The notes: generated from the sequence alone by a model not told the origin. DNA of 31,265 nucleotides from an uncultured Gammaproteobacteria bacterium (GCA_964356665.1 CAYHIM010000001.1:1-31265); one strand, 5' to 3'; positions 4,360 through 24,219 are shown, counted from the stretch's first letter. Translations and numbers: made by a program.

Positions 4360-4446
4360 CAAAATTTTCTTCTCAATTATTAATTAAATAATCGCTTCTT
4401 TCTTTCCTTTAAATAAAAAAGAAAAAGGAGGAGTTATTCTAATTTT

Positions 4447-7215: not shown

Positions 7216-8574
7216 ATGTCCGATAATTTCAAAAAAATAGGGCTAAATATCTTAATTCTACTGTTTCAGGGAATATATTATGGCGTTAAATTTTTAATAC
7301 TGGGATTGCGAAATTTGTTATTTCTCCCTTTATACAATGTCTCTAAAAAGCTCTTTGGCAGTGTTATTATTAGGCTGTACGGGCAATTCCTAATTTTAAA
7401 AACAAAAATCGGCAGCCAGGAGCGAGTGCGGTTTAGCCGTCTATTTTTGAGCAGCCGCGCCACTCATGCCACCATTATTGGCTTAACCGTTATTATTTTA
7501 ATAATTAATCTAACCGCCGGCAGTAAAGATACCTTGGCGGCTGACGACAGCTCTCCTAAACCAATACTTTTTTACTTACTGCAGAACGAGTTTGCCGAAG
7601 ATGAGGAGTTAATCGTGGAAACTTTTGACCAGTCCGCTATTGTCACGCCCGAAGAAGAAAACTATCTGCGCAATTTAGGCAGCGTGCGCGTCCAGCCGCA
7701 AGCGGAAATGAAAGCCGTTGGGGAGGCAGAAGAGGAAACGACGGAAAGTTTAGTCCACGGCGGCAGCTCTTTTGTCAAACCCAACCTGGCGCAAACCAAA
7801 AAAGTAAAGCGGCCGCGCACGACTATTGTCTTTCATGCGGTGCAATCCGGCGAAACTATCAGCACCATCGCCCAAGAATACGATATTTCGGTCAGCGCTA
7901 TTTTGTGGGAAAATAACCTAACCGCCTATTCCGTTATCCGCCCGGGCAATACTTTGGCAATTTTGCCGGTAAGCGGCGTGTCTTATGCCATTCAGCGAGG
8001 CGACACCCTGCAAGGCATTGCCAAAAAATACGGCGTTACTAAAGAAGAAATAGCTAACTTTAATAAATTAGCGGATTCAGGCTACCTCCGCGCCGGACAA
8101 AAAATTATCATTCCGGGCGGCAGTAAAAAATATACCGCGCCGGCCGTTACCAGCTACTCCGGCATCGCGGCTCTAAAGGAGCTGATTACTCCGCCCTCGG
8201 CTAAACCGGTGCCGGGCAACAAGATGAATTGGCCGACTATCGGCTACCGCATCACCCAGTATTATAGTTGGCGCCACCGCGGCATTGATATTGCTAATAA
8301 ATTAGGCACGCCTATTTATGCCGCCGACGCCGGCGTCGTGGAATACGCCGGCTGGGGCACGGGCTATGGCAACCAAGTGGTTATTGACCATGGCGGCGGC
8401 AAACGCACGCGCTACGGGCACGCCTCCAAGTTATTAGTGCAAAAAGGCGAAGAGGTGGCGAAAGGGCAAACGATTGCTTTGATTGGCTCTACCGGCTGGT
8501 CCACCGGGCCGCACGTGCACTTTGAAGTTATTATTAATAACATTAAGTATAACCCATTTGACTTTGTAAAATAA
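7216..8574 (+). CDS. Membrane-anchored LysM (x2) plus M23 metallopeptidase
   Basis: LysM repeats HAVQSGETISTIAQEY and YAIQRGDTLQGIAKKY. M23 motifs HRGID, YGH and STGPHVH. N-terminal TM segments. Confidence 0.92.
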   Translation: MSDNFKKIGLNILILLFQGIYYGVKFLILGLRNLLFLPLYNVSKKLFGSVIIRLYGQFLILKTKIGSQERVRFSRLFLSSRATHATIIGLTVIILIINLTAGSKDTLAADDSSPKPILFYLLQNEFAEDEELIVETFDQSAIVTPEEENYLRNLGSVRVQPQAEMKAVGEAEEETTESLVHGGSSFVKPNLAQTKKVKRPRTTIVFHAVQSGETISTIAQEYDISVSAILWENNLTAYSVIRPGNTLAILPVSGVSYAIQRGDTLQGIAKKYGVTKEEIANFNKLADSGYLRAGQKIIIPGGSKKYTAPAVTSYSGIAALKELITPPSAKPVPGNKMNWPTIGYRITQYYSWRHRGIDIANKLGTPIYAADAGVVEYAGWGTGYGNQVVIDHGGGKRTRYGHASKLLVQKGEEVAKGQTIALIGSTGWSTGPHVHFEVIINNIKYNPFDFVK

Positions 8575-8578
8575 CGCT

Positions 8579-8842
8579 ATGCATTTTATTATCGGTCTAA
8601 TCGGCATGGCGGTCGGCGCGCTGATGGTTATTTACTCGGAAAAAATCTACAACGCTTTCGGCCCCATTCCTTGGTTTGAAAAATATCTCGGCACCGAGGG
8701 CGGCTCTCGCTTGGGCTACAAACTCATCGGCATACTGGCATTTTTTATCTTTATGCTGGTTTTCTTGAATTTGCACCAAAGTTTTATTATGTGGATTTTA
8801 AGCCCGATCATTAGGCCGATACAGAAAACAATTATCAATTAG
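8579..8842 (+). CDS. Small two-TM membrane protein, unknown function
   Basis: 87 aa with two hydrophobic segments; starts 4 nt after the M23 stop. Confidence 0.75.
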   Translation: MHFIIGLIGMAVGALMVIYSEKIYNAFGPIPWFEKYLGTEGGSRLGYKLIGILAFFIFMLVFLNLHQSFIMWILSPIIRPIQKTIIN

Positions 8843-8843
8843 C

Positions 8844-8875
8844 AATTACGAATAATTGATAATTCGTAATTTTTA
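8844..8875 (+). terminator. 10-bp inverted repeat plus T-run
   Basis: AATTACGAAT (8844-8853) / ATTCGTAATT (8862-8871), then TTT. Confidence 0.4.
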
Positions 8876-8891
8876 ATTTGTAATTGATTTT

Positions 8892-8964
8892 GGGCTGTTA
8901 GCTTAGCTGGTAGAGCGCCGCGTTTGCAACGCGGAGGTCGGGAGTTCGAATCTCCCACAGTCCA
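8892..8964 (+). tRNA. tRNA-Ala(UGC)
   Basis: Acceptor GGGCTGT/ACAGTCC with G3:U70, anticodon arm CCGCG-TTTGCAA-CGCGG, T-arm GGGAG-TTCGAAT-CTCCC. The gene copy ends ACA, not ACCA. Confidence 0.96.
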
Positions 8965-9034
8965 CATGGTTCTCCACGGGATAAACCCGTGGCGCCCCGA
9001 GTTAATCTCGGGGCGAATCCGGCACAGTCCACCA
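8947..9034 (+). repeat. Duplicated tRNA-Ala 3' end around a double-hairpin cassette
   Basis: CGAATC-nnn-CACAGTCCAC at 8947-8965 and 9014-9032 (16/19, 67-bp period). Perfect hairpins CCACGGG/CCCGTGG (8974-8992) and CGCCCCGAG/CTCGGGGCG (8993-9015). The downstream copy ends in CCA. Confidence 0.85.
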
Positions 9035-9037
9035 AAT

Positions 9038-9074
9038 AAAAAATGACTTACTTCTATAGAGCAAGTTATTTTTT
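9038..9074. terminator. Bidirectional terminator-like hairpin between convergent tRNA-Ala and the Nramp-like gene
   Basis: AAAAAATGACTT (9038-9049) / AAGTTATTTTTT (9063-9074). Confidence 0.55.
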
Positions 9075-9094
9075 TGTTAAGTTTAAAGTTTAGT

Positions 9095-10489
9095 TTAAAA
9101 AATCTTATCCCACAGCGTCAGCCCGCCAAAAAATAAAAAGGTCAGGAAAATAACAATGATAATTGCCTTGCGCCAAACTCTTGCCTGAAACTCTTTTGGC
9201 AACGCTTTATGATTCATCCAGTTTACCAGCGCGATATGCGCGGCCATGGCGCAGCCGTTGATGACCGCGCCCAATACGATGAGGAACTTCGGTTCATAGA
9301 TGTTAAACAAAAATAAAATAATGCCGAAAGCAATCTGCGCCCAGACAAAACAAAAATAAATTTTAGACAGGTTAATTCTGCCGCTCGGCTGGCCGCCCAA
9401 TTTCCAAAGAGCTAAATTTTCCGCCATAATGCGCGAGGTGGAATCCATAATTCCCAATTGCGTTTGGAATAACATTACGGACACGACCAACAAAAACAAT
9501 ATTCCAACCCCAGGCGCAAGCAGACCGCCGATGGCGAGCCCCTCATTGATTACAAATAAAATCCCCTGCGCGTTAGCCGGGTTGCCAAAAGCCGCGGCAT
9601 AAGCTAACAGCATTAATAAAAGCATGGCCAGCGCGCCTAAAAACCAAAATACGAGCAAATGCTCAAGACTAACTTTGCGCCACCAAGCGTGGAAGCGGCT
9701 GATGCTTACAGCGTCAACTTTAAAATTTTCACCGGTTAATTTTACTTCCTGATGTTCGCGGATGTCGCGGAACAGGCCGGCGATTTTTTGCGCATGCCTT
9801 CCCATGCCGTATCCCTTTTCCCGAACATAAATTGACTGCGTCAGATTTAAATTGCCGCCCGCGCCCGCGTAAGCGAACGCGCCTAAAAATACCGCCAAAC
9901 TCATGCCGGCCGGCCAAAACCAAAAACCGTCCCCCATCCCAATAATTCCTTGCCCCAGTGCGAGCCAATCAAGGTCGCGCGCGATGATAAAAGTCAAAAC
10001 TAAAATAAACGGAATGCCTAAAATAATGACTATTTTAGTGATATGTTCCATCATCGCGTACACCGTTTTGCCAATGCTTAAAATCAAGCCGATTAAAATT
10101 AAAAAAACAATCGCCGTCCATTTAAAATCAGTAATGCCAAACATAAAGCTAAATACCTGCGCGCTCGCGGCAATAATTCCGGGCAGACCAAAACCAATAA
10201 AAGTAGAGGCGATAAACCAACCCGCAGCCCAGCGCCACAATTTATGCATGCCGACAAAAACCGATTCGCCTTTAACCAAAGCATAGCGCTCAATTTCCAT
10301 GTTGATAAAATACTGGCAAGTAATGCCTAAAAGCGCGCCCCAAGCAATGCCTAAGCCAAAGTTAGAGGTTAAGTATGGCCACAAAATAACTTCTCCCGAG
10401 CCCAAGCCCAAAGCTAAAATAATAAAACTCGGGCCAAGCATCTGCCGAAAAAAAATAACTTTAGGAAATTCTTTTAAGTCACGCGCCAT
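9095..10489 (-). CDS. Nramp/APC-superfamily putative divalent cation transporter
   Basis: Multi-pass membrane protein with GPSFIILALGLGSGEVILWP, EIERYALVKGES, AYAGAGG and TQLGIMDSTSR; lacks the canonical DPGN. ATG 10489 is chosen, with 10516 as the alternative. Confidence 0.7.
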   Translation of the reverse strand: MARDLKEFPKVIFFRQMLGPSFIILALGLGSGEVILWPYLTSNFGLGIAWGALLGITCQYFINMEIERYALVKGESVFVGMHKLWRWAAGWFIASTFIGFGLPGIIAASAQVFSFMFGITDFKWTAIVFLILIGLILSIGKTVYAMMEHITKIVIILGIPFILVLTFIIARDLDWLALGQGIIGMGDGFWFWPAGMSLAVFLGAFAYAGAGGNLNLTQSIYVREKGYGMGRHAQKIAGLFRDIREHQEVKLTGENFKVDAVSISRFHAWWRKVSLEHLLVFWFLGALAMLLLMLLAYAAAFGNPANAQGILFVINEGLAIGGLLAPGVGILFLLVVSVMLFQTQLGIMDSTSRIMAENLALWKLGGQPSGRINLSKIYFCFVWAQIAFGIILFLFNIYEPKFLIVLGAVINGCAMAAHIALVNWMNHKALPKEFQARVWRKAIIIVIFLTFLFFGGLTLWDKIF

Positions 10490-10594
10490 ATTTATCCCCA
10501 CACCATTAGACGCCATAATATTATTTCTAAGACGTAAGGCGGATAATTTAGTGGCAAAAATACCCCAACCGTTAACAAAATATGGTGTGGGGAT

Positions 10595-11335
10595 TTATTC
10601 TAACAATAGAAGCAAAGCCATAATGCCAACCCCCGCGGCAATGCCCAAAAACTGCTTTAATGACTGGCTTAATTCATTTTCTTTTTTCAACTCGGGAATT
10701 AAATCAGCGGTGGCGATATAAATAAACCCGCCGATAGTCAAAGGGATGATGATATTGGTAAAATCCGCGAACTGGCTGGCAAAAATAATGCCCACGCCGG
10801 CGCCTAAAAAAGCGACCAGCGCCGATAAAAAATTAAACAATATCGCCTTGCCCCGCGTTAAACCGGCGTACAGTAAAACGCTAAAATCACCAACTTCCTG
10901 CGGAACTTCGTGCGCAATGACGGCGGCTGTTGTTACCAGCCCCAGCGGCAAGCTAACGGCAAAACTGCCGGCAATAACCAACCCGTCAATAAAATTATGC
11001 AGGCCGTCGCCGACTAAATTAACCGCGGCCAAGGTATGCACGTGCTGCCGGGAAGTGGGAATGTGGCAGTGCCGCCAGCAAATAAATTTTTCCAGTGCAA
11101 AAAAAATGATGATGCCGGCTAAAATTAAAAGTGAAGAGCGAATGGTAAGCGCAGCCCCCCCTGCCAAATTCGGCACTAAATGCAAAAAAACGTCGCCCAA
11201 GAGCGCGCCGGCGGAAAAGCTGACTAAATAAAACAAAACTTTCTGCAATTTTTCCACGCTTACGGCCAGCGCAATCACCCCCATCAGGGAAATGAGGGAA
11301 ACAACAAACACGCTGGCAAAAATGTATAGGTTCAT
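10595..11335 (-). CDS. ZIP-family metal transporter
   Basis: SFSAGALLGDVFLHL, His loop CWRHCH, HNFIDG and HEVPQEVGDF signatures. Confidence 0.93.
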   Translation of the reverse strand: MNLYIFASVFVVSLISLMGVIALAVSVEKLQKVLFYLVSFSAGALLGDVFLHLVPNLAGGAALTIRSSLLILAGIIIFFALEKFICWRHCHIPTSRQHVHTLAAVNLVGDGLHNFIDGLVIAGSFAVSLPLGLVTTAAVIAHEVPQEVGDFSVLLYAGLTRGKAILFNFLSALVAFLGAGVGIIFASQFADFTNIIIPLTIGGFIYIATADLIPELKKENELSQSLKQFLGIAAGVGIMALLLLLE

Positions 11336-11365
11336 AAAATATCTAAAAAAATAAATGCTTTAGTT

Positions 11366-11374
11366 ATTGTAGCA
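11366..11374 (-). promoter_or_regulatory. Extended -10 element for ZIP-Nramp
   Basis: Minus strand TGCTACAAT about 30 nt upstream of the ZIP ATG; no good -35. Confidence 0.45.
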
Positions 11375-11393
11375 GATTTTTATTAATCTTACT

Positions 11394-11431
11394 AAAAAAG
11401 AAAAACGCCGAGCCAAATGAATGACCCGGCG
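11394..11431 (-). terminator. Intrinsic terminator of purL
   Basis: Minus RNA CGCCGGGUCA-UUCAUU-UGGCUCGGCG (10 bp, 2 G-U) followed by UUUUUCUUUUUU. Confidence 0.85.
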
Positions 11432-11457
11432 GGGAATTTAAATAATAGATTTACTCC

Positions 11458-14400
11458 CTAATCTATGCTGCAAAAAAATGAAACAGGCTCAACGGAACAG
11501 TCGTCAACAGCACTGCACCATAAATAGGCATTTTGGAACATACGTCGCCAGGGAGAACTCTGAATATCCGCCCACTCGCGCGGCCAATATGGCCATTGGT
11601 ATGGCAATACTGTCCGCTCCGGATGTTCCATAAAAGCCAAATGCCGACCGGTTGAATCACACAAAGCAGTAATGCCGAGCGCGGAGCCGTTGGGATTAAA
11701 CGGATACTTCTCGGTGGGAGTACCATAATCGTCAACGAACAGTATCGGGGCCAAATGCTCATTAAAAATCTTCTGCTGCACTTCCGGATCGGGGATAACC
11801 AATCTTCCTTCTCCGTGCGCGCAATGGACTCCTAGTACTGCCCTCTCCATTCCAGCTAGCATGATTGCCGGCGACGGACAAATCCGTACTGTTGGGAAAC
11901 GAGCCTCAAAACATTCGCTGGTGTTAGCAATCAAAGCAGGTTGAATTATTTCCGGCATCATCCAAGGAACGATTCCAAGCAATACCATCAGCTGACATCC
12001 ATTACAAACGCCTAAACTGAAAGTATCTGGCCGGTCATAAAATTTAGCAAACTCGCGTGCAGTTTGTTGGTTGAATTTGATAACTCCAGCCCAACCCTTA
12101 GCGGCTCCTAAAACGTCCTTGTAAGAAAAGCCGCCCACAAAGGCGATGCCCCTAAACCAGCTAAGGGAAACGCGACCCGCAATGATATCGGTCATGGTCA
12201 CGTCCCACACCTCAAAACCAGCGAGGTGGAAGGCGAATTTCATTTCCTCATCACCATTACTCCCTTCCTCGCGAATGATTGCTACCCGCGGCAAATTGGA
12301 AGAAGCGGAACGAAAAGAGATTGGCCGGCAGTCAGGATCAAAGTTTAGATAGTAACAGGGGCCAGGTCGGTCAAAGGTGTTAGCGCGTTCGTTAGCTACG
12401 CACGACCTTACCGCGTGAAAATTCTTGAGTTGAAATGAGGTATCGCGCCAGATTTCGCGCAGTACCTGCATATCTTCCTCAAGAACTAATTGGTTGTTAT
12501 GCGTAACTGTGATGCGCTTTTCCCGTGAAGTTGCACCAACTAGCTGGAGAGAATCCGCTAATCCTGCTTTACAGAAGCACTCTTGTAAGGCCGCCTCGTT
12601 TTTGGGTAAAACTTCCAGAACAAAGCCAAGCTCTTCATTGAAGAGTAGCTCAATTTTTGAAGCAGAGGGATGATTTAACTGAACATTAATCCCGCAGTTG
12701 CCAGCAAACGCCATTTTAGATAGCGCCGCCATTAACCCGCCCCTAGTTCTAGCGCAAACGGACAGAGCCAACTTTTCGCGCAATATTTTTTGCATGAGAT
12801 AAAAGGCTCGGTTGAGCGTTTGCGGGCTTTCAACATCTGGAGCTCGAGTGCCGATTTGGCATAAAGTTTGGGCCAGCGCACTTCCGCCCAGCCGAATATT
12901 GCCTTTGGCCAAATCAACAAAATAAAGTCTGCTTTCTCCCGGCCGCTTGATGTCAGGAGTAGTTCGTAAACGGAAATCCGGACAGCCAACATAGGTTGAA
13001 ATAACTAAAGTACTAGGGGACTGTACTGTAGTATCATCCACTTTAGCTGCCAGTGAAAGCGAGTCCTTACCACCATCAATGCCCATGCCGATCTTAGGCA
13101 TAAAACGATTCAACGCCGAAGCTGCATCATACAACCAGGCAATGCCACCCGGTAATTTGGCTGCCAGCATCCAGTTCCCTGAAACTTTAATATCTTGCCG
13201 CCGAGTTACGGGAACACCAATAAGCTTCAACAGGGCTTCAGCCGCGGTCATGCATGCCATAGCCTGCGGGGAGATAAAGCCGATTGCTGGCCTAACTCCA
13301 ATTGAATCTGCCTGTCCGACATGTTTAAAGTGGCTAAGAGCTATTACCGAGTAATCATTGACTGGTAGACCTAACTGTCCAACAGACTCTGACTGTACTA
13401 CTTTGCCGGTAACGCTATTGTCCACGATAGTTGTCATCCACTCTTTTGAGCAAACACCCAAAAGCCGAAAGACTCTTTCAATTGCTTGGCGTACGGTAAG
13501 ATCCGATGGTATGTCAATCGGTTGAATGGGAGGGCGACGGCGTTTGTCCTGATACATCTTTTGCGGATAATCGCCAAAAACATGTTTGAGATCAAGGTCG
13601 GCGACTACTGTGCTATCTTCGTCAACAACCACAAACTTGCTGTCATGGGAAACAACGCCAATCGCAGCACAATGAACTTTTTCACGTTCGCATATTGCCG
13701 CAAACTCCTCCCACCTGTCTGGCTCAATCAACAGCGCTAAATTCTCCTGATACTCGGCAACCATAATTTCATCATCAGTGAGAGTTGGGTCGCCAAGCGG
13801 AATAGAACGCAGTCTGATTACCGCGCCTTGGGGGTTAACAATCTCCTTTAGAACATTGCCGTTGCCGCCGGCTCCCTGGTCATGAATGACCTTGATGGGG
13901 TTTCTCTCACCCATCAAAATACAAGCGCGCAAAACGCGGTCGGCTTTATTAGCCATTTCGCCATTTGCCCGCTGGACTGAATTAAAGTCCAAATCTTCAG
14001 TGCTTTCACCTTGCATCATGCTGGAGGCAGAGCCGCCGCCAACGCCGACGCGGTAGGCGAGTCCGCCAATCTTAACTACCAGCCAACCTTCTTTTGGTTT
14101 GGCTTTCTCCACGTGCCGGGCATCAATTATACTGAAGCCGCCGGAAAACATTACCGGCTTAACAAATTCCCAGCGCTTGTCGCCAATAATCATGCCAAAA
14201 CTTTCCGCAAAAGTAAGAATAACCGGCTCGCCGAACTGATTGCCGTCATCAAACGCGCCTTTAGTGGCCCGGATGAAAAAGTTTAATGGCGATTCAGTGC
14301 GCGGATCATAACTGAAGGTTTTGTCCTCCCAAGGGAGTTCGTATCCGGCAATATTAAGATTGCCGCCCATAAACCCGGCTGAACCGGCAACAACAATTCC

Positions 14401-15426
14401 GCCCCGACCCGGCGCTTCGCTGTCACGCCGCCGCCCCCCGCCGCCAGTACCCGCGCCTTGATAGGCGCACCAAAGGCAAGGGTGGTTATGGGTTTCACAT
14501 GTTAAAACCAGATGGAATAATAATTCTGCCATTCGCATAGGGGAAGGCATGCCCGGACGCTCTGGGATTAAATAAGAAACAGAAAATCCGTAAATCGCCG
14601 ATGCGTTATCATGATAGGCAATCATACTGTTCTTGCGATTCTTCAGCGTGCCCTGAACAAGCTCCATGAGAGTAAAAGGCACTTCTTTGCCGTCAATGAT
14701 AAGTTTGGCGCGGAAGACATGGTGCCTGGAGTGCTCGGAATTGGTATTTCCTAGATCACGAAATTCCGCCACAGTCGGGTTGCGCTTCATTACCTCAACA
14801 AAGAGGTAACGGTAATATTCCAAATCTACATCGTCCATGCCGGCGCCATACTGCTCATTCGCCTTTTTCAAGGCTTCAATACCATTTTCCATAACTGGAA
14901 TTGGCTTTGACCGCTTTAATTTTTTGCTAAATTTGAATGCTTGCAAAGGCTTCAGATAGAGACATTCGGTCATCTTGTCGTGCAGTAAGGGCGCAATCAA
15001 ATCTTGTTCATGTTTAGTAAGAGGACGATCTAAAATAATCCAATATCGTCGCGCCTGCTCTACTCTTTCAATGCTTTTAATGCCGCAAGATTGGCAAATA
15101 GCAACCGCATTGGTTGAATCCGCGGTTTCAAAATTCAGGCGGGGTCCAAACTCCAAAATATTCCTGCCATTTCTGCTAAAAAAAGTGGTTCGTTTCAGAT
15201 TTTTCGGCTGATGTTTGTCGCGCAATAGCCAACGCAATGTGCGATGATTTGTTGTTGATAGCGGAGAATCCGTTTCAACATAGATTACCTGCTCGGTTTC
15301 AATCCGAGTAATTTCCGGGATAACCTTCCGGAGCTTTTCAGTAAGTTCGGCACTTTTAGCGTCGCTCAATAGTGGCGTACGATGAAATCTAAGAACTTTT
15401 GTTGTTGCCATTTTTTTCATCTCCAT
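11458..15426 (-). CDS. purL: Large fused phosphoribosylformylglycinamidine synthase (FGAM synthase), plant/metazoan PFAS-like
   Basis: NSEHSRH, ETHNHP, HDQGAGGNGNVLKE, EYQE and DGGKDSLS in the synthetase part. Glutaminase GGFSY.DVLGAAKGW, GVCNGCQ and HPER (Cys-His-Glu triad). The start could be 15426, 15420 or 15411. Confidence 0.95.
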   Translation of the reverse strand: MEMKKMATTKVLRFHRTPLLSDAKSAELTEKLRKVIPEITRIETEQVIYVETDSPLSTTNHRTLRWLLRDKHQPKNLKRTTFFSRNGRNILEFGPRLNFETADSTNAVAICQSCGIKSIERVEQARRYWIILDRPLTKHEQDLIAPLLHDKMTECLYLKPLQAFKFSKKLKRSKPIPVMENGIEALKKANEQYGAGMDDVDLEYYRYLFVEVMKRNPTVAEFRDLGNTNSEHSRHHVFRAKLIIDGKEVPFTLMELVQGTLKNRKNSMIAYHDNASAIYGFSVSYLIPERPGMPSPMRMAELLFHLVLTCETHNHPCLWCAYQGAGTGGGGRRRDSEAPGRGGIVVAGSAGFMGGNLNIAGYELPWEDKTFSYDPRTESPLNFFIRATKGAFDDGNQFGEPVILTFAESFGMIIGDKRWEFVKPVMFSGGFSIIDARHVEKAKPKEGWLVVKIGGLAYRVGVGGGSASSMMQGESTEDLDFNSVQRANGEMANKADRVLRACILMGERNPIKVIHDQGAGGNGNVLKEIVNPQGAVIRLRSIPLGDPTLTDDEIMVAEYQENLALLIEPDRWEEFAAICEREKVHCAAIGVVSHDSKFVVVDEDSTVVADLDLKHVFGDYPQKMYQDKRRRPPIQPIDIPSDLTVRQAIERVFRLLGVCSKEWMTTIVDNSVTGKVVQSESVGQLGLPVNDYSVIALSHFKHVGQADSIGVRPAIGFISPQAMACMTAAEALLKLIGVPVTRRQDIKVSGNWMLAAKLPGGIAWLYDAASALNRFMPKIGMGIDGGKDSLSLAAKVDDTTVQSPSTLVISTYVGCPDFRLRTTPDIKRPGESRLYFVDLAKGNIRLGGSALAQTLCQIGTRAPDVESPQTLNRAFYLMQKILREKLALSVCARTRGGLMAALSKMAFAGNCGINVQLNHPSASKIELLFNEELGFVLEVLPKNEAALQECFCKAGLADSLQLVGATSREKRITVTHNNQLVLEEDMQVLREIWRDTSFQLKNFHAVRSCVANERANTFDRPGPCYYLNFDPDCRPISFRSASSNLPRVAIIREEGSNGDEEMKFAFHLAGFEVWDVTMTDIIAGRVSLSWFRGIAFVGGFSYKDVLGAAKGWAGVIKFNQQTAREFAKFYDRPDTFSLGVCNGCQLMVLLGIVPWMMPEIIQPALIANTSECFEARFPTVRICPSPAIMLAGMERAVLGVHCAHGEGRLVIPDPEVQQKIFNEHLAPILFVDDYGTPTEKYPFNPNGSALGITALCDSTGRHLAFMEHPERTVLPYQWPYWPREWADIQSSPWRRMFQNAYLWCSAVDDCSVEPVSFFCSID

Positions 15427-15589
15427 TTCGGTATTTTTTGGTGATATCTGTAAAGACGAAAAATGAGTCCTTGTTTTATTTATTCTATTATAAAAAGAAC
15501 CAAAAATTGGTCCTCCTTTCTGTCTTTATCTAACCACTTTAACGGCAAAAAAGCAAACGGAGGATAAATAGACTAATGATTGTTTAATT

Positions 15590-16024
15590 TTATTTACTTA
15601 CCCTAATTGCCTGCCTCACAACGGATATTGATAATAACCCGGTCAGCGCCAGTTGCAATAAAGGACTTAAGCCTAAACCAAAAATCGTCGGCATCATTGG
15701 GCTATAAATCCACTGGTGAAAAATATAAACGGCTTTGTATTCAATAATAGCGGCAACGATGATGCCAGCAAAAATTACGTAGAGACGCCCTGACAGGGCG
15801 TCTCTACGAAACCACCAAAAATTTCTCCAAATTAAAACTCCGCTAAAAAATATTCCGAGCAACAACAGCGTATCCACGCTCGCGGCGTACGCCATTAGCG
15901 GCCAAAAACTTAAATTAAAAGTGTGTGAGGCGTAAAGATACGACGCGTGCCAGGACTCCCAGATAAAATTGCTCACGAACGCCATGAACGCGAACAGAGC
16001 AATAATTTTTACTTTATCTCTCAT
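15590..16024 (-). CDS. Four-TM membrane protein, unknown function
   Basis: 144 aa, hydrophobic, with WESWHASYLY and WIYSPMMPTIFGLGLSPLLQ. Its ATG overlaps the upstream stop (ATGA). Confidence 0.75.
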   Translation of the reverse strand: MRDKVKIIALFAFMAFVSNFIWESWHASYLYASHTFNLSFWPLMAYAASVDTLLLLGIFFSGVLIWRNFWWFRRDALSGRLYVIFAGIIVAAIIEYKAVYIFHQWIYSPMMPTIFGLGLSPLLQLALTGLLSISVVRQAIRVSK

Positions 16025-16746
16025 ACTCTTGCGTTTAATTTTTCATTAAGAACTTTTTTTAAACGGTACCAACTGAAATGTTCATAGACGCTCGACCAAT
16101 ATAAACCAAAGCTGAATGCCCACAGCAATTCTTCTAACGGGACGCCGGAAATGAGTACGCCGGAAATAGCCGCGAAATTCCAAACCGCCTGGACATAACC
16201 GGGGAAAGTAAAATTCAATAGTAAAAAGGTGACGAAATAAACGCCCGTAAACAGCGCGCCGCTGACGAGCATTTTACTGACTAAATCCGGCCGGCAGTAC
16301 CAAGTGGCAAAAAATCCGGCCACTAGAGCAATCATTGCCGCGTAAATTGGATTAAAACTGGTTGCCGCCAATAAAAGCAAAAAAGCTATCGGTGCCGATA
16401 CAACTGCCCAGAAATGGAAGCGGTGCCGCCCGCGGCGATGCTCGCCGGCCGGCATTTTAACGTGGCGCGCCGGCAGCAGCGCTTCGTACATAACAACCAC
16501 GATGCCGCCAACGGCAAAACAGAAAATGAAACTTTCTAAATCAAAGCCGGCGCGGCGCGCTAAATCAAACAACGTGGGCGGGTTCCAATAAGCCGGCACA
16601 AAGAACGGTTCGGTCAGCGCTAACCACATCGTCCAAAAACTAACGCGCCTAATTTCAGGGCGAGAGCCGGAACGAGCAGAAAAAAACACTATCAGCCAAA
16701 CACCCAACAAAAACAAACTAAAAATTAAATACGCGTAGGTATCCAT
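16021..16746 (-). CDS. Lycopene-cyclase-domain-like membrane protein (two repeats)
   Basis: Repeat-type motifs YWNP...GFDLESFIFCF and VWN..AISGVLISGVPLEELLWAF resemble CarR/CrtYc-type domains. Confidence 0.65.
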   Translation of the reverse strand: MDTYAYLIFSLFLLGVWLIVFFSARSGSRPEIRRVSFWTMWLALTEPFFVPAYWNPPTLFDLARRAGFDLESFIFCFAVGGIVVVMYEALLPARHVKMPAGEHRRGRHRFHFWAVVSAPIAFLLLLAATSFNPIYAAMIALVAGFFATWYCRPDLVSKMLVSGALFTGVYFVTFLLLNFTFPGYVQAVWNFAAISGVLISGVPLEELLWAFSFGLYWSSVYEHFSWYRLKKVLNEKLNARV

Positions 16747-16784
16747 AACAACTGCTGTTATTAGATAAAAACTTTATCTTATAG

Positions 16785-17066
16785 TTAGCGTCGGCTTAAC
16801 TGGGCATGGAACCAAATTAACAGCCACGCGCCAACATAAACATACAGCGCTATCTCAATCAAACCCACAGCTAAACTTAAAGGCGTGATAACGACATCGC
16901 CGGCAAATTTTTCCACATTGGCGATGTGCGTTACCCAAGCTAAAAGTCGCAGGGCAGCTGCCGGCCAGAGCGCGACAATTGCCGCGCAGGCAAGGTAAAA
17001 TACTGCCGCTACCCCGGCCGCGGCGAGCGCCCAAGCATGAGCATTCGCTCTGTTTTCTTGGTTCAT
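16785..17066 (-). CDS. Small two-TM membrane protein (DUF5676-like)
   Basis: AAVFYLACA...WVTH pattern, with Cys and His in or near TM segments. Confidence 0.65.
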   Translation of the reverse strand: MNQENRANAHAWALAAAGVAAVFYLACAAIVALWPAAALRLLAWVTHIANVEKFAGDVVITPLSLAVGLIEIALYVYVGAWLLIWFHAQLSRR

Positions 17067-17084
17067 ATTTTTTAACTTAATAAA

Positions 17085-17447
17085 TTAGTCTTTAAGCGCA
17101 TGTTTAGTAATAGCCAAATTACAGCTGTGGTGTTTGCGGCACCAAGCCTCGCATTGCTTTGCCCAGCTTAATTCGGCATAGCGCAACCCGCACTCCGGGC
17201 AAGTGTAAAATTTGGTGGTTGCAGTTTGCCCACTTTCAGTATGGTGCGCCGTTTGTCCGCTATGCCCATGCCCGCGCATCATAAAAATATGTACTAAGGG
17301 ACAAAGCAAAACGAGCAGCCAAATTACATAATCATTTGCGTCTTTAGACCAAAATAACCAAGCCGCGATTACGACCAGCGGCAAAGCGCAGCCGACAACC
17401 ATCAGCCAAAAATGTTTATTGAATATGTTGTCTTTTAGTAAGGACAT
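17085..17447 (-). CDS. DUF2933-like membrane domain fused to a Cys/His-rich C-terminal domain
   Basis: VVGCALPL...LLCPLVHIFMMRGHGH, then CPECG...CEAWC.KHHSC...KH. Confidence 0.75.
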   Translation of the reverse strand: MSLLKDNIFNKHFWLMVVGCALPLVVIAAWLFWSKDANDYVIWLLVLLCPLVHIFMMRGHGHSGQTAHHTESGQTATTKFYTCPECGLRYAELSWAKQCEAWCRKHHSCNLAITKHALKD

Positions 17448-17865
17448 ATAATAAATAAGCGATGCTTAAAAGATTAATCGCTAAACTAATAACGAGCAGG
17501 GGGCGCTGATACTGCCCTAAAAACAGGACGGCGCCGGACAGGCCCCACAGCGGCAATAAATCAACTAAATGATGGGCGCAACAAGCTAACATTGAAACAG
17601 AGGAAGTAGCTCCACTCATTCCCGGGACAGCGCTACTGGTTTGATAATGGACAATTCTTAAATATGACCAAAGGCCAAATTGAACGCCAAAACTAACAAT
17701 AATAGCTATCAATAAATACCAAACTGCCGCTGTCGTTGCCCACGCTTCCTGCCAATTAGGCATCGTCCATGATATCAGTATACCATAGAGCAAACTTAAG
17801 CCGAAGCTGGCAACCGCTCCGCGTTTAATTGAGCGGGTAATTTCTTTTGACCACATATTATTCAA
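17416..17865 (-). CDS. Membrane protein with a CCxHH motif
   Basis: Four TM segments; SSVSMLACCAHHL. Overlaps the next gene by 32 nt. Confidence 0.75.
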   Translation of the reverse strand: MNNMWSKEITRSIKRGAVASFGLSLLYGILISWTMPNWQEAWATTAAVWYLLIAIIVSFGVQFGLWSYLRIVHYQTSSAVPGMSGATSSVSMLACCAHHLVDLLPLWGLSGAVLFLGQYQRPLLVISLAINLLSIAYLLYVLTKRQHIQ

Positions 17866-17875
17866 TAATTAGTTG

Positions 17876-18127
17876 CTATTCCGTAAAACATTCGGCATAG
17901 AGGTCGGGGTGATGCGACATATGTTCTTGCCATTCCGCTTCGGTATAGCCGGGCGGAGTTTGGCATTTGTCCGGCAACTCGGCTTGTAGGGCTTTGGTAA
18001 AATTATTTTGATTATTAATCAATGACGAAACAGCCGGCTGCCTGCCAAATATTCCCCAAGCCGACCAAATTAAACCGCCTAAGGCTAAAATTACTAAGAC
18101 AGTAATAATTAATTTTTCCCATTGCAT
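17876..18127 (-). CDS. Small membrane-anchored protein with a C-x12-H-M-x-HH-x6-C motif
   Basis: Start at MQWEK (18127), TM, then CQTPPGYTEAEWQEHMSHHPDLYAEC. Confidence 0.75.
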   Translation of the reverse strand: MQWEKLIITVLVILALGGLIWSAWGIFGRQPAVSSLINNQNNFTKALQAELPDKCQTPPGYTEAEWQEHMSHHPDLYAECFTE

Positions 18128-18137
18128 AAAATTATTG

Positions 18138-18407
18138 TTAACAGCCGCCGACTTGGGAAGGCAGACCAAGATTAGCGGAAGCGGCCGGCGCGGCTGCGGG
18201 CGCGGCGGCGCCGCGGGCGGAATTAGCCGCCTGCACATAACCGCGCAGGCGGCCAATTTCTATTGACTGGAAAAAAGTCATTAAGAGTAAAATAATCACT
18301 ACTCCGATAATAATGCCGTCTTTAAGCAGCCGAACGCGCTGACGGCGCTGGTCAAAAAGACTGTCTATTTCTTGCGCCGCTGTTGCTTTTAAGGTTGCGT
18401 TGTCCAT
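18138..18407 (-). CDS. Small single-TM protein ending LPSQVGGC
   Basis: 89 aa with a TM, an Ala/Pro linker and a C-terminal GGC. Confidence 0.75.
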   Translation of the reverse strand: MDNATLKATAAQEIDSLFDQRRQRVRLLKDGIIIGVVIILLLMTFFQSIEIGRLRGYVQAANSARGAAAPAAAPAASANLGLPSQVGGC

Positions 18408-18457
18408 AAATTTAATTTTAATTAATAAATGAATTAACAGCCGCCGACTTGGGAAGG
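18138..18457 (-). repeat. Identical 24-bp segment encoding PSQVGGC-stop in two adjacent genes
   Basis: TTAACAGCCGCCGACTTGGGAAGG at 18138-18161 and 18434-18457. Confidence 0.95.
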
Positions 18458-19066
18458 TAAAGACGCGTTAGTAGCGCCCCGACCCTGACTAGCTAAATAT
18501 TTCTGCACGGTTGGCCCGGGAAAAAATACCGCCTTCCATTTATTGGCCTCCTCTAATATCTGCTGGTCGCTCATCGTGTTGCCTTGAGTGGTTAACAAAT
18601 AAGCAATCACGCCGCGCATCGCCGCCGAATGGGCGCAGGCGCACGCTTTGCTTCCGTCCGGAAATACCAAAGTCGTGGCGCCGCAACAAAATTCGCAAGC
18701 CGTCTGCTGGCCAATGGCAATATAACGTTGCAGTAACGTACCAGTTAGTTTATCCTGGCGCGTGTCCTGCTCGAACGGTGATAAAATATTGATGGCCGTA
18801 GCCGGATTGTCAAAACTAATCCCCAGTTTAGCGCCGTAAACCGGCGGCGCGCCGCGCGTTAACATTTTATCTGCCACAGCGGCGATGTCGGCGGGCAAAA
18901 CGCCGCTAGTGGCAGTTGCTCCGGATGCTGAATTGGCTGGCGCGGCGGCATTAGCTTGTGAAGACGCCGCCGCTAACATTTTATTCATCATGCCTAATTG
19001 CCACTGATTAATAATCAGCATAAACAAAAGAACAAATATCAGGGCAATGCCGTATTTTTTTTGCAT
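18434..19066 (-). CDS. Exported Cys-rich protein (CxxCC...CxCxH) ending LPSQVGGC
   Basis: N-terminal TM/signal, ACEFCCG, ACACAHSAAMRG and a C-terminal GGC. Confidence 0.8.
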   Translation of the reverse strand: MQKKYGIALIFVLLFMLIINQWQLGMMNKMLAAASSQANAAAPANSASGATATSGVLPADIAAVADKMLTRGAPPVYGAKLGISFDNPATAINILSPFEQDTRQDKLTGTLLQRYIAIGQQTACEFCCGATTLVFPDGSKACACAHSAAMRGVIAYLLTTQGNTMSDQQILEEANKWKAVFFPGPTVQKYLASQGRGATNASLPSQVGGC

Positions 19067-19091
19067 ACAACTTATGATTAGTAAATAATAT

Positions 19092-19256
19092 TTAGGATTT
19101 ATGGCAACTGCCCGGTTTTGTTCCTTGTTTTAGTTGGTTGATTACTTCCGGGGAAACGCGGCACATCGGGCAATCGCGATTTTGTTTTTCTTTCTTTTGC
19201 TTTTGCCGGGGAGAAAATATTTTTTTTGTTTTTAGTTGAGCCAATAACTTAAACAT
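19092..19256 (-). CDS. Unannotated 54-aa basic CxxC protein
   Basis: Hand translation: MFKLLAQLKTKKIFSPRQKQKKEKQNRDCPMCRVSPEVINQLKQGTKPGSCHKS*. It fills the 19067-19292 gap in the operon orientation. Confidence 0.65.
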   Translation of the reverse strand: MFKLLAQLKTKKIFSPRQKQKKEKQNRDCPMCRVSPEVINQLKQGTKPGSCHKS

Positions 19257-19292
19257 AAATAAGTATATTTAGTAAATAAAACCGATTCGCTT

Positions 19293-20534
19293 TTACACGA
19301 ACCACATTAAAATAATAATGCCGACTGCTACGGCGGCAACGCCTAACCAAAGCTTCCAAGTTTTGGCGGCGTCTGCTTGCCAAGCGGCTATCCGGCTAAG
19401 CGCGTAGTGGTTGCCGACAAAGGCTAATAATACTATCAGCGGCAACACAAACATTACATTATAGAGCAAAAGATAACCGAAGCCCTGCCAAAAATTATTC
19501 CGAGAAGCAAGCAAGCCGATAATCGCGACATAAATTCCGCCGGAACAGGGGAAAGTGCAAAGCCCGACTAAAAACGCGCCAACAATAACTGCCGACAACG
19601 TCCCTTTGGTCAGCCAGCGCTGCAACGCTCCTTGAGAAAAATGCGGTATTTGTAATTTTATAGGAAACCGCGGCAGGTAATAACCGATAATATTTATTCC
19701 GCCCAAAACAATAATCAGCCAAGCGCCGATTTTAGCCATTAGATGCGGCTCATTAGATAAGACGATCGCTTTAAATAATCCTAAGCCAATGCCTAAATAC
19801 GTCAGATAGATAATACCGATGTAGAGACTGCCGTAAAGCGCGATTAACTTTAAACTGCCTTTGAACGTAAACAGAAAAGCGATAAAAAACAACAGTACCG
19901 CAAAGGCGCAAGGATTAATGCCGTCAAGCAGTCCGGTGGAAAGTACCAGCGGCAATAAGGAGCGTTGTTTGTTTTGGCTCGGAAATAATTCCTGCTTCTG
20001 CCAAGAATTAAGATAGGTTGTTAATGGTTCGTCTAAACCATACATTTGCGCGGCCATACCGGGCTGCCAGACCGCATATTTAACATCTTTAATTTGAATG
20101 CCCGACATTCCTAACATCTGGTCTTGGAAAATCAGCATCGGCTGCGGCAGCTGCTTAGTTGCTATCGCCTCGCGCACTCGCGCCAAAGGCACATGCCCGC
20201 CAATAATAACTCTGCCGTCATCAAGAAAGGTCATAATATGACTCTGTAATTCATAGGGGATGTTAAATTTATCCTGCAAAGAATTCAGGTCTCTTCTCAC
20301 CTGCCGGTCGTTTAAATAATCAAATAACTTAACCGTCATTCCTTGCCCTTGTAAGTAAGGCACGAGCTCTTGGGTCAAATACTGATTGCAATCGCCGCAC
20401 GCTTCGTTGTAATAGATATCTGCCGTTTGATAACGTTCCTCCGGCTCCGCCGCCCAAACAAAATGCCAGCTAACTAACAGCAAACCGGCTATCAAGCCGT
20501 TTCTTAGATATTTTTTTAGCTTAAATTTTTTCAT
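19293..20534 (-). CDS. Thioredoxin-like domain plus CcdA/DsbD-type membrane thiol-redox protein
   Basis: Signal peptide, CGDC motif, and TM domain with GLLDGINPCAF and CTFPCSGGIY. Confidence 0.85.
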   Translation of the reverse strand: MKKFKLKKYLRNGLIAGLLLVSWHFVWAAEPEERYQTADIYYNEACGDCNQYLTQELVPYLQGQGMTVKLFDYLNDRQVRRDLNSLQDKFNIPYELQSHIMTFLDDGRVIIGGHVPLARVREAIATKQLPQPMLIFQDQMLGMSGIQIKDVKYAVWQPGMAAQMYGLDEPLTTYLNSWQKQELFPSQNKQRSLLPLVLSTGLLDGINPCAFAVLLFFIAFLFTFKGSLKLIALYGSLYIGIIYLTYLGIGLGLFKAIVLSNEPHLMAKIGAWLIIVLGGINIIGYYLPRFPIKLQIPHFSQGALQRWLTKGTLSAVIVGAFLVGLCTFPCSGGIYVAIIGLLASRNNFWQGFGYLLLYNVMFVLPLIVLLAFVGNHYALSRIAAWQADAAKTWKLWLGVAAVAVGIIILMWFV

Positions 20535-20544
20535 ACATTCTTTC

Positions 20545-21042: not shown

Positions 21043-21063
21043 AGCGATGCTTTAAAAATAACT

Positions 21064-21536: not shown

Positions 21537-21547
21537 AAATAATACTC

Positions 21548-21769: not shown

Positions 21770-21806
21770 AAAGCCTCCTATGATTTTATAAATTAATAAA
21801 TTCAAT

Positions 21807-24209: not shown

Positions 24210-24219
24210 CGCAAAATAG

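What the first reader, a model, noticed from the sequence alone, without database searches (positions are those of the whole stretch)
11458..15426. Isolated plant/metazoan-type fused PurL in a CPR-like genome
Seen: a 1322-aa fused FGAM synthase with no other pur gene in the window, inserted between metal-homeostasis genes and carrying its own strong terminator. Motifs EFGPRLNF, HDQGAGGNGNVLKE, KPVMFSGG and DGGKDSLS match my recollection of animal/plant PFAS rather than E. coli or yeast PurL (HDVGAGGLSNAMPE, PVGKDSMS). The glutaminase triad is intact, but synthetase motifs deviate (GGRRRD versus GGRIRD, DNSV versus DRSV). Known: CPR bacteria mostly lack de novo purine synthesis, and gammaherpesviruses repurposed host PFAS. 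Inference: lateral acquisition, possibly with altered or deamidase function, or a bacterial sister lineage of eukaryotic PFAS.
Basis: partly seen in the sequence, partly recalled or inferred. Interest (0 to 1): 0.72.

Follow-up and report, generated by a model that had tools for sequence, protein, structure and literature searches.

The report
Stand-alone purine-synthesis gene in Falkowbacteria
This is an intact, ordinary-looking gene for the fourth enzyme of purine synthesis (large PurL) in a tiny groundwater bacterium; it belongs to a version of the enzyme found in such bacteria, is absent from the same spot in the two closest relatives, and is of modest interest.

Summary
The 1322-aa ORF (11458-15426, minus strand) is real. 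It is a full-length large FGAM synthase (lgPurL): TIGR01735 scores 1348.7 bits against a cut-off of 1123. The Cys-His-Glu triad and all mapped ammonia-gate residues are intact.

The protein scores 1117 bits to human FGAMS (9N9W) against 720 to Salmonella PurL. This "animal-like" subtype is nevertheless common in bacteria (Nitrospirota, Desulfobacterota, Gemmatimonadota, Actinomycetota).

The nearest relatives, at 51-61% identity, form a well-supported clade whose named members are all Patescibacteria. In three other genomes of the order, lgPurL follows a PurN-like gene; two of these carry the same clade, and two also have a PurM-like gene downstream.

The genome is a Ca. Falkowbacteria MAG. 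Its purL lies in a 4.18-kb single-gene segment that two congeners lack at an otherwise collinear locus.

It is not an orphan. The genus carries divergent purF, purD, purM, purE, purC, purB and purH. The pathway is eroding, though: this genome's purH is a 104-codon remnant.

A sister relation to eukaryotic PFAS is not favoured, but it is not rejected either (AU p = 0.20).

Verdict: a new member of a known kind, of modest interest.

The parts
11458..15426 (-). purL: large FGAM synthase (lgPurL, EC 6.3.5.3), 1322 aa, intact
   Evidence: ORF. TIGR01735 1348.7 bits, cut-off 1123. 1117 bits to human FGAMS 9N9W.
14950..15288 (-). N-terminal (PurS-like) domain, aa 47-159
   Evidence: Pfam PF18076 FGAR-AT_N, 61.8 bits
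14722..14871 (-). linker domain, aa 186-235
   Evidence: Pfam PF18072, 28.3 bits, cut-off 26.6
12991..14091 (-). FGAM synthetase (duplicated PurM-like) core, aa 446-812. It holds Q485 of gate 4, the C-loop residues G464 and S468, and D669 of gate 3; H313, the other residue of gate 4, lies upstream of this span at aa 313.
   Evidence: Pfam AIRS_C and FGAR-AT_PurM_N-like. Residue mapping from the alignment and PMC13013826 passages. Column census.
11515..12291 (-). class I glutaminase domain, aa 1046-1304, with C1141, H1268, E1270 and gate-3 R1271
   Evidence: Pfam GATase_5, 321.7 bits. Invariant columns.
11406..11431 (-). terminator-like hairpin plus T run, 27 nt after the purL stop, inside the indel segment
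   Evidence: sequence read
15427..15570 (-). AT-rich leader of the inserted segment, upstream of purL. A promoter here is inferred, not shown.
   Evidence: Sequence. Boundary from the alignment to G002.
11390..15570 (.). 4.18-kb segment present here and absent at the collinear site of congeners G001 and G002. It is flanked by a short imperfect direct repeat (CATTAGTC / AGATTAAT); G002 has a single AGATTAGTC.
   Evidence: The left junction is bridged by a metagenome contig.
10595..11335 (-). ZIP metal transporter, the conserved downstream flank (78% aa identity to congeners)
   Evidence: Pfam PF02535
15590..16024 (-). 144-aa membrane protein with no family match, the conserved upstream flank (68-70% aa identity to congeners)

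Best explanation
The ORF encodes an intact, probably active large FGAM synthase. It uses glutamine and ATP to convert FGAR to FGAM, step 4 of de novo purine synthesis. Ammonia made at the Cys-His-Glu glutaminase site passes through a gated channel to the PurM-like synthetase site.

The gene belongs to a clade of lgPurL whose named members are all Patescibacteria. That clade lies within the broad subtype shared by eukaryotes and many non-proteobacterial bacteria.

In this Ca. Falkowbacteria MAG the gene is detached from the PurN-purL(-PurM) arrangement seen in other members of the order. It sits alone, with its own leader and terminator-like hairpin, in a 4.18-kb segment between a membrane-protein gene and a ZIP transporter. 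The two sequenced congeners lack the segment. I favour gain from another Patescibacterium over loss in the congener lineage, at about 55:45.

The genus carries a divergent purine pathway that is being remodelled and eroded, so purL is one piece of a mosaic pathway rather than an orphan.

Shown: gene integrity, family, clade, the indel, and the pur inventory of the assemblies. Inferred: enzyme activity, direction of the indel, and whether the pathway is complete in the living cell.
For: Family and integrity:
- TIGR01735 above cut-off over its full length.
- All five expected Pfam domains.
- 1117 bits to human FGAMS and 720 to Salmonella PurL.
- Conserved here, and in 24 of 24 rows of the clade, are C1141/H1268/E1270, H313 and Q485 (gate 4), D669 and R1271 (gate 3), C-loop G464/S468, K423, N396 and D335. 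Roles come from PMC13013826 passages.
- The terminal branch is 0.40 against 0.20-0.62 for the other 12 clade rows, so there is no acceleration.

Clade:
- The best 22 hits (61-49% identity) include four named Patescibacteria, Parcubacteria or Moranbacteria; two animal proteins score among them at 46 and 43%.
- The clade has 24 rows with support 100 in the 223-row FastTree.
- It has 13 of 13 rows with 100/100 support in the careful 58-row tree.

Pathway role of lgPurL in the order:
- G017 (same clade): PurN-like, then purL 19 bp later.
- G033 (same clade): PurN-like, purL, a 218-aa ORF, then PurM-like.
- G035: PurN-like, purL, then PurM-like; its lgPurL is not of this clade.

Indel:
- G001:C7 is collinear with window 7216-24188 at 53-91% aa identity but has no purL.
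- G002 has about 60 bp between the two flanking genes.
- tblastn finds no purL remnant at E <= 0.1.

Other pur genes:
- G000 has a full-length purF-like gene (237 bits), purE (207 bits, over cut-off), two PurM-like genes and the C-terminal end of purD.
- G001 and G002 have purD and purB over cut-off, plus purF-, purE-, purC-, purM- and purH-like genes.

Composition: ordinary. GC is at the 76th percentile, GC3 at the 38th and codon distance at the 27th of 336 ORFs of at least 300 aa.
Against: Pathway incomplete in the assembly (92.4% complete, 120 contigs, read depth about 1-6x in the runs laid):
- No purC or purB.
- No PurN beyond an Fmt-like hit.
- purH is a 104-codon remnant between conserved flanks.
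- No PurO or PurP.
An active PurL would then feed a pathway that cannot reach IMP, unless the missing genes lie in assembly gaps. The purB-purE-purC region of the congeners falls exactly between two contig ends.

Channel and site positions that deviate from the other 144 rows counted. Their effect is unknown:
- F392, where others have S or A.
- R333, where others have I.
- N670, where 144 of 144 have R.
- G329.

Direction of the indel cannot be polarised:
- G001 and G002 are 96% identical to each other, so they count as one lineage.
- The outgroups are not syntenic at this site.

No expression data: no RNA run was listed.
Confidence: 0.8

Rival explanations
1. The Patescibacteria lgPurL clade is the closest bacterial sister of eukaryotic PFAS.
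For: - The clade shares subtype signatures with eukaryotes: R332 and E400, where Gamma/Beta-proteobacteria and Bacteroidota have E and R/Q.
- The protein scores far higher against human FGAMS than against Salmonella PurL.
- The AU test does not reject a tree that holds the 13 clade rows and 7 eukaryote rows together (p 0.203).
- Against the short 'quick' search, that constrained tree was even 19.6 lnL better.
Against: - The careful ML tree puts eukaryotes with Nitrospirota-, Desulfobacterota-, Gemmatimonadota- and Actinomycetota-type bacteria (24 rows, support 94/95) and the clade outside.
- The constrained tree is 20.75 lnL worse.
- The same signatures are shared by those other bacteria.
- Both groups sit on long stems, so attraction is a risk.
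- Only 7 named eukaryotes were included (5 animals, 2 protists). There were no plants or fungi and no outgroup.
- The mixture-model run did not finish.
Confidence: 0.1
2. The gene was acquired recently from a plant, an animal or another eukaryote.
For: Motif resemblance to animal PFAS.
Against: - Identity to animals is only 43-46%, against 51-61% to Patescibacteria proteins.
- Eukaryotes form their own clade (100/99) without it.
- The gene has no introns, bacterial signals, and GC and codon use typical of the genome.
Confidence: 0.01
3. The protein has been repurposed. It might be a deamidase or pseudoenzyme like the herpesvirus vGAT proteins, or a stand-alone glutaminase. A variant of this reading is that it works in a truncated pathway whose products are exchanged with a host.
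For: - The gene stands alone, away from pur genes.
- purH is a remnant, and purB, purC and purN were not found in this assembly.
- The clade shows changes at otherwise near-invariant channel and site positions.
Against: - All catalytic, C-loop and gate residues of both active sites are kept.
- TIGR01739 (the herpesvirus form) scores 253 bits against a cut-off of 716.
- The deviant positions are shared with same-clade genes that follow a PurN-like gene, one of them with a PurM-like gene downstream.
- There is no branch acceleration.
- The missing pur genes coincide with contig ends.
Confidence: 0.07
4. The gene is ancestral to the genus at this site. It was deleted in the G001/G002 lineage by recombination between short direct repeats, rather than gained here.
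For: - A short imperfect repeat flanks the segment here and is single in G002.
- The pur pathway is eroding in all three species. purM is truncated in G001. purH has an internal stop and only its N-terminal part in G002. purH is a remnant in G000.
- PurL identity to G017 (61%) is like that of the neighbouring ZIP (59%).
- Composition is native.
Against: - In 10 other genomes of the family, the only lgPurL found (G005) belongs to a different clade.
- The same site in G001 holds a different small cassette, which suggests an insertion hotspot.
- Elsewhere in the order purL follows a PurN-like gene rather than standing here.
Confidence: 0.4
5. It is an assembly or binning artefact: purL belongs to another organism and was joined to this contig by mistake.
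For: The MAG is fragmented (120 contigs, 3% contamination) and read depth is low.
Against: - Both flanks are collinear with the congeners.
- A separate metagenome contig (X3 record 23, 15484-15730) bridges the left junction.
- Depth over purL (about 1-6) is like that of the flanks. These runs may be the MAG's own source.
- The right junction is crossed by only 17 bases in the pieces listed.
Confidence: 0.02

Closest known systems
Patescibacteria lgPurL clade (for example P0002 = the G017 protein, 61% identity; proteins named Parcubacteria and Moranbacteria)
   Same: Same clade (100/100 support). Same length and domains. Same clade-specific residues, including F at the human-S390 position and variable residues at the human-I331 and human-R686 positions.
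   Different: In G017 and G033 the gene follows a PurN-like gene, and in G033 a PurM-like gene lies downstream. Here it stands alone between unrelated genes.
Human FGAMS/PFAS (PDB 9N9W; PMC13013826)
   Same: Three-domain single chain. 1117 bits over residues 11-1305. The triad, gates 3 and 4, the C-loop contacts and most channel-lining residues are identical.
   Different: The human alignment carries extra residues, for example near human residue 603. The paper describes human-specific loops L1 and L4, which I did not map here. Changes here are S390 to F, I331 to R, R686 to N and T327 to G. This protein does not lie in the eukaryote clade.
Salmonella/E. coli-type lgPurL (PDB 1T3T)
   Same: Same architecture and chemistry; 720 bits over residues 17-1300.
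   Different: A different subtype. It has E where this protein has R332 and R where it has E400, and its motifs read HDVGAGGLSN and PVGKDSMS. It is distant in the trees.
Herpesvirus vGAT / tegument pseudo-FGAM synthase (TIGR01739)
   Same: Homologous over the C-terminal half.
   Different: 253 bits against a cut-off of 716. The triad and synthetase residues are intact here.
Split FGAM synthase (PurS + small PurL + PurQ)
   Same: Same reaction. Present in genomes G030 and G040 of the same order.
   Different: Here the enzyme is one fused chain. TIGR01736 scores 169 bits against a cut-off of 526.

Membership tests
Large FGAM synthase (lgPurL, TIGR01735, EC 6.3.5.3) | Full-length match above the curated cut-off | tested here: met
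   1348.7 bits against 1123.05; model positions 2-1306 of 1307
Large FGAM synthase (lgPurL, TIGR01735, EC 6.3.5.3) | One chain with an N-terminal domain, linker, duplicated PurM-like synthetase and class I glutaminase | tested here: met
   Pfam PF18076, PF18072, PF02769 (two stretches), PF22689 and PF13507
Large FGAM synthase (lgPurL, TIGR01735, EC 6.3.5.3) | Cys-His-Glu glutaminase triad | tested here: met
   C1141, H1268 and E1270 are invariant in the 20-row alignment and are kept in nearly all of the 168 rows counted. Human C1158 is named the catalytic cysteine in PMC13013826.
Large FGAM synthase (lgPurL, TIGR01735, EC 6.3.5.3) | Synthetase-site, C-loop and ammonia-gate residues (human H311/Q485, D685/R1300, G463/S467) | tested here: met
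   H313, Q485, D669, R1271, G464 and S468 are present. Four channel or nearby positions differ across the clade.
Large FGAM synthase (lgPurL, TIGR01735, EC 6.3.5.3) | Catalyses FGAR to FGAM | not testable with these tools
   Needs an enzyme assay or purL-null complementation
Large FGAM synthase (lgPurL, TIGR01735, EC 6.3.5.3) | Works within a complete de novo purine pathway in the same genome | tested here: inconclusive
   purF-like, purE, PurM-like genes and a purD end were found. purC, purB and purN were not found and purH is a remnant. The assembly is 92% complete, and contig ends fall at the pur loci.
Eukaryotic PFAS lineage | Branches within, or as sister to, eukaryotic sequences | tested here: inconclusive
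   Not within: eukaryotes are monophyletic without it (100/99). Sister placement is 20.75 lnL worse but not rejected (AU p 0.203).
Herpesvirus vGAT pseudoenzyme (TIGR01739) | Match above cut-off; loss of catalytic residues | tested here: not met
   253.3 bits against 716.1; catalytic residues are kept
Small PurL / PurQ split system | Separate subunits of about 720 aa and 230 aa | tested here: not met
   A single 1322-aa ORF. TIGR01736 scores 168.9 against 525.75 and TIGR01737 scores 100.8 against 177.8.

The most novel reading that the evidence does not exclude
The Patescibacteria lgPurL clade, to which this gene belongs, is the closest living bacterial sister of eukaryotic PFAS. If so, the eukaryotic step-4 enzyme and the CPR enzyme share a specific common source. 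The data here neither favour this nor reject it (the constrained tree is 20.75 lnL worse; AU p 0.203).
Probability: 0.1. Interest if true: 0.6.

Novelty: new member of a known kind. Interest (0 to 1): 0.3.

Why it matters
It shows that a gene which looks eukaryote-like and orphaned within one window is an ordinary enzyme of a clade seen so far in Patescibacteria.

About 7% of Patescibacteria genomes are reported to retain de novo nucleotide synthesis (bioRxiv 10.64898/2026.06.21.733656, passages read). This case adds detail to that minority:
- In this Falkowbacteria-like order, pur genes are patchy and mosaic.
- lgPurL came in from at least four different sources (three of them again). A further lgPurL, from a Gracilibacteria MAG outside the order, nests in Bacteroidota.
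- Pur genes are present or absent at otherwise collinear loci.
- Three close species each carry a different broken pur gene.

This is a caution for pathway-completeness calls made from MAGs.

For enzymologists, the clade offers natural variants at ammonia-channel positions that are fixed elsewhere.

Tried and rejected
I sent the first 1200 residues by window reference instead.
- The search for related loci with the single protein found nothing in genome contigs. The alignment query worked.
- The site-heterogeneous (PMSF) tree on 58 rows did not finish in two 300-s calls. All trees reported use LG+G4 or FastTree LG+CAT.
- The 'quick' free tree was worse than the constrained tree, so I replaced it with the careful search and repeated the AU test.
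- The L040 ORF in the 223-row tree is a spurious long frame (branch length 4.15) and should be ignored.
- Rows under 1150 aa were dropped before tree building. Among them were two partial Moraniibacteriota loci, L028 and L033.
- Polarising the indel with outgroups failed: ZIP in G005 and G017 has other neighbours.
- tblastn found no purL remnant at the empty sites (best E 0.28).
- No RNA holder was listed among the public runs. The three DNA runs laid are low-depth contigs of one groundwater study and may be the MAG's own source. No contig joins across purL.
- I did not run structure prediction, complex prediction or the protein atlas. Sequence similarity to solved FGAMS structures already fixes the fold.
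- No plant or fungal PFAS could be brought in by name, so 'plant-type' was not tested directly.


Full report
**Observation**

The window is the whole of contig C1 of a 920,695-bp MAG. The MAG has 120 contigs, 92.4% completeness and 3.07% contamination.

The ORF at 11458..15426 on the minus strand is 1322 aa. Pfam finds the N-terminal FGAR-AT domain, the linker, two AIRS_C stretches, the PurM_N-like domain and a GATase_5 glutaminase. NCBIfam TIGR01735 (FGAM synthase) scores 1348.7 bits against a cut-off of 1123.05 and covers positions 2-1306 of 1307. The split-enzyme models and the herpesvirus model all fall far below their cut-offs.

Its recollection of the animal and enterobacterial versions agrees with the printed alignments to human FGAMS and Salmonella PurL.

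I scanned 23 other ORFs of the window against Pfam. None is a pur gene, and 8 matched no family.

A hairpin with a 10-bp stem, 7 G-C pairs and a T run lies 27 nt after the stop codon. The scan found no more terminator-like sites in the region than shuffles give (10 against 8.5). The hairpin's position is therefore the argument, not the count.

**Whose genome**

RNase J of the window is 85, 79, 71 and 70% identical to proteins named Candidatus Falkowbacteria. The contig is collinear with contigs of two congeners. The CPR attribution holds.

**Which kind of PurL**

Against solved structures, the protein scores 1117 bits to 9N9W and 720 bits to Salmonella 1T3T. PMC13013826 names 9N9W as human FGAMS (data-availability passage).

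The word-indexed search ranked the hits as follows:
- The best 22 hits run from 61% down to 49% identity.
- After these come about 50% hits named Deltaproteobacteria, Nitrospirota, Thermodesulfovibrionales and Gemmatimonadota.
- Two animal proteins scored 46% (Priapulus) and 43% (Chelonia).

A scan of one genome per species returned 76 loci in two tiers. The 42-50% tier holds Actinomycetota, Chloroflexota, Gemmatimonadota, Nitrospirota, Thermodesulfobacteriota, Acidobacteriota and Moraniibacteriota. The 30-36% tier holds Gamma- and Betaproteobacteria, Bacteroidota and others.

The 'animal-like' look is therefore a subtype that many bacteria have.

**Trees**

I built a FastTree of 223 rows. Rows under 1150 aa were dropped beforehand, and one row (L040) is a spurious frame. 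The tree puts the query in a 24-row clade with support 100 and a stem of 0.41. Six of the 24 rows carry a CPR label and none carries any other. The six are the four named proteins (one of which is the G017 protein itself) and the proteins of G017 and G033, two genomes of the same order.

I then ran a careful IQ-TREE search (LG+G4) on 58 hand-picked rows, including 13 of the 24 clade rows:
- The clade is recovered at 100/100.
- Seven named eukaryotes are recovered at 100/99. They are Asterias, Phlebotomus, Trichuris, Priapulus, Chelonia, one EukProt protist and Chrysophaeum (names).
- Eukaryotes sit with Nitrospirota-, Desulfobacterota-, Gemmatimonadota- and Actinomycetota-type bacteria (24 rows, support 94/95).
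- The Patescibacteria clade lies outside that group.

Holding the clade and eukaryotes together costs 20.75 lnL, with p-AU 0.203. That is not favoured and not rejected. The mixture-model run did not finish. No plants, fungi or outgroup were available.

Other lgPurLs of the same order lie elsewhere in the tree:
- G037 falls inside the Nitrospirota-type group.
- G005, from the same family as the window, pairs with an unnamed lineage.
- G035 sits on a long separate branch.
- A Gracilibacteria MAG's PurL nests in Bacteroidota.

So lgPurL has entered these small genomes several times.

**Is it likely to work?**

I mapped the residues that PMC13013826 names (passages) through the alignment. I then counted them in five groups of the 223-row alignment, 168 rows in all.

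Kept here and in 24 of 24 clade rows:
- the nucleophile C1141, with H1268 and E1270;
- gate 4, H313 and Q485;
- gate 3, D669 and R1271;
- C-loop G464 and S468;
- K423, N396, D335 and T327.

- At the position of human I331, the clade has R in 12 rows, Y in 5, V in 5 and G in 2. The other groups have I, rarely L.
- At the position of human R686, the clade has R in 13, D in 5, S in 3, Q in 1 and two others, including N here. All 144 other rows have R.

Two further clade features came out of the same count. Human S390, which the paper lists as channel-lining, is F in 23 of 24 clade rows and S or A elsewhere. Human T327 is G or R.

R332 and E400 are shared with eukaryotes and the Nitrospirota-type group. 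Proteobacteria and Bacteroidota have E and R/Q at these positions.

The query's terminal branch (0.40) is like its clade-mates' (0.20-0.62).

**Pathway context**

In G017 a PurN-like gene ends 19 bp before purL. In G033 the order is PurN-like, purL, a 218-aa ORF, PurM-like. In G035, whose lgPurL lies outside the clade, the order is PurN-like, purL, PurM-like.

These points together argue for a working FGAM synthase and against a deamidase or pseudoenzyme. No activity was measured.

**The locus**

G001:C7 is collinear with window 7216-24188, gene by gene, at 53-91% aa identity. Between the 144-aa gene and ZIP it has 837 bp of 31% GC. That stretch encodes a small nucleotidyltransferase/HEPN-like pair (my reading of the sequence) and contains no purL.

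In G002 the same two genes are about 60 bp apart.

Homology to G002 ends at window 15571 and resumes at 11389. A short imperfect repeat (CATTAGTC / AGATTAAT) flanks the 4.18-kb segment, which carries purL, its leader and the hairpin. G002 has a single copy, AGATTAGTC.

G001 and G002 are 96% identical to each other and 75-76% identical to the window. They count as one lineage, and the outgroups are not syntenic here. Gain and loss therefore cannot be told apart.

I lean towards gain for three reasons:
- No other genome of the family has this clade's gene.
- The site holds a different cassette in G001.
- Elsewhere in the order purL follows a PurN-like gene.

Two observations leave an old gain or an ancestral gene open. 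Composition is native (GC at the 76th percentile, GC3 at the 38th and codon distance at the 27th of 336 ORFs). PurL is 61% identical to G017's, against 59% for ZIP.

Three low-depth groundwater metagenome runs of one study hold the stretch. One of their contigs bridges the left junction, and none skips purL. These runs may be the MAG's own source.

**Not an orphan, but a pathway in flux**

In G000 I found:
- a full-length purF-like gene (237 bits, cut-off 350);
- purE over its cut-off (207 bits);
- two PurM-like genes at contig ends;
- the last 38 residues of purD at a contig start.

I found no purC, no purB, and only an Fmt-like match to the PurN model.

Across the 41 genomes of the order searched (G000 included), matches and matches over cut-off were:

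| Gene | Any match | Over cut-off |
|---|---|---|
| lgPurL | 11 | 6 |
| purM | 19 | 2 |
| purC | 18 | 5 |
| purB | 17 | 6 |
| purD | 23 | 8 |
| purE | 19 | 2 |
| purH | 9 | 0 |
| purF | 32 | 1 |

Many of the purF matches are GlmS-like cross-matches.

The congeners have purD and purB over cut-off, and purF-, purE-, purC-, purM- and purH-like genes. They have no FGAM synthase of any type in their 88-89% complete assemblies.

Signs of erosion or gaps in the three species:
- G000's purH is a 104-codon remnant (aa 97-200 of 595, 69% identical) between conserved flanks.
- G000 has no PurO or PurP.
- G001's purM is only its last 116 codons.
- G002's purH match covers only the N-terminal part and has an internal stop.
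- The congeners' purB-purE-purC cluster falls exactly between the ends of G000 contigs C66 and C79.

Signs of mosaic origin:
- Contig C107 (purD, HAD, purE, PurM-like) has the gene order, and 53-72% identity, of the G030 operon rather than of the congeners.
- On C104, next to a PilB that is 90% identical to G001's, the PurM-like gene resembles G006 and G030 (59-61%) and not G002.

The pathway in this genus is thus a mosaic that is being replaced and lost piecemeal. Whether G000 can still make IMP is open.

**What is known**

A 2026 preprint reports that 93% of the Patescibacteria genomes it examined lack de novo nucleotide synthesis (10.64898/2026.06.21.733656, passages). The Patescibacterium description reports incomplete pathways (PMC11809585, passages).

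Two searches for a PurL phylogeny that links eukaryotes with these bacteria listed nothing on it (listings and abstracts only).

**Verdict**

It is wrong on 'plant/metazoan-type', 'isolated' and 'altered function'.

This is a new member of a known enzyme family, in a clade whose named members are all Patescibacteria. Interest is modest.

Noticed in passing
L118 (G001:C7) 8971-9806, the site that holds purL in the window: The congener has an 837-bp, 31% GC cassette here. By eye it encodes a small nucleotidyltransferase (GSxARxxxxxxSDIDILVEF-like) followed by a HEPN/DUF86-like protein, which would be a toxin-antitoxin-type pair. The intergenic site may be an insertion hotspot.
   Followed up: partly
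G000 contig C37:3256-3567 (L010/L134): purH is reduced to a 104-codon remnant (aa 97-200 of the congener's 595-aa PurH, 69% identical, with a TGA in the wider match) between conserved flanking genes.
   Followed up: yes
L130 (G001:C36) 4313-4657; G002:C32:4109-4732: Each congener has its own damaged pur gene. G001 keeps only the last 116 codons of purM. G002's purH match covers only the N-terminal (IMP cyclohydrolase) part and has an internal TAA.
   Followed up: partly
G000 contigs C107 (1-2068) and C104 (2-769): C107 carries a purD end, a HAD hydrolase, purE and a PurM-like start, in the order of the G030 operon (53-72% identity) and unlike the congeners. On C104 the PurM-like gene beside a genus-typical PilB resembles G006 and G030 (59-61%), not G002. 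This points to gene replacement among Patescibacteria, or to a stray contig in the case of C107.
   Followed up: partly
window 15425 (read laying, run X3): One low-depth contig matches the 5' end of purL exactly (15141-15424). It then continues for 255 letters unlike the window, just upstream of the start codon. The gene may exist in a second context in the same community.
   Followed up: no
window 15778-15808: A perfect 14-bp-stem palindrome lies inside the 144-aa gene. Metagenome contig depth jumps to 27-42 in that bin, with loose ends on both sides. The palindrome occurs once in this genome. It may be a shared short element or an assembly-graph effect.
   Followed up: partly
window 27634-30573 (-): A 979-aa secreted or membrane protein with a thrombospondin type 1 repeat (Pfam TSP_1, 28 bits) and Cys-rich stretches. 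This is an unusual domain for a bacterium of this kind.
   Followed up: no
window 16785-27607 (-): A long same-strand block of copper/redox envelope genes: a CopA-like P-type ATPase with HMA, a DsbD_2-cupredoxin-HMA fusion, DsbA-like, DUF1573 and DUF2933 proteins, and several membrane proteins with no family match. The stretch compared (16021-24209) is conserved gene by gene in the congener G001.
   Followed up: no
L087 (Gracilibacteria MAG contig), L012 (G037), L014 (G005), L016 (G035): lgPurL genes of other CPR genomes fall in four other parts of the tree: inside Bacteroidota, inside the Nitrospirota-type group, with an unnamed lineage, and on a long lone branch. Either the gene was acquired repeatedly or these contigs are mis-binned.
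   Followed up: partly
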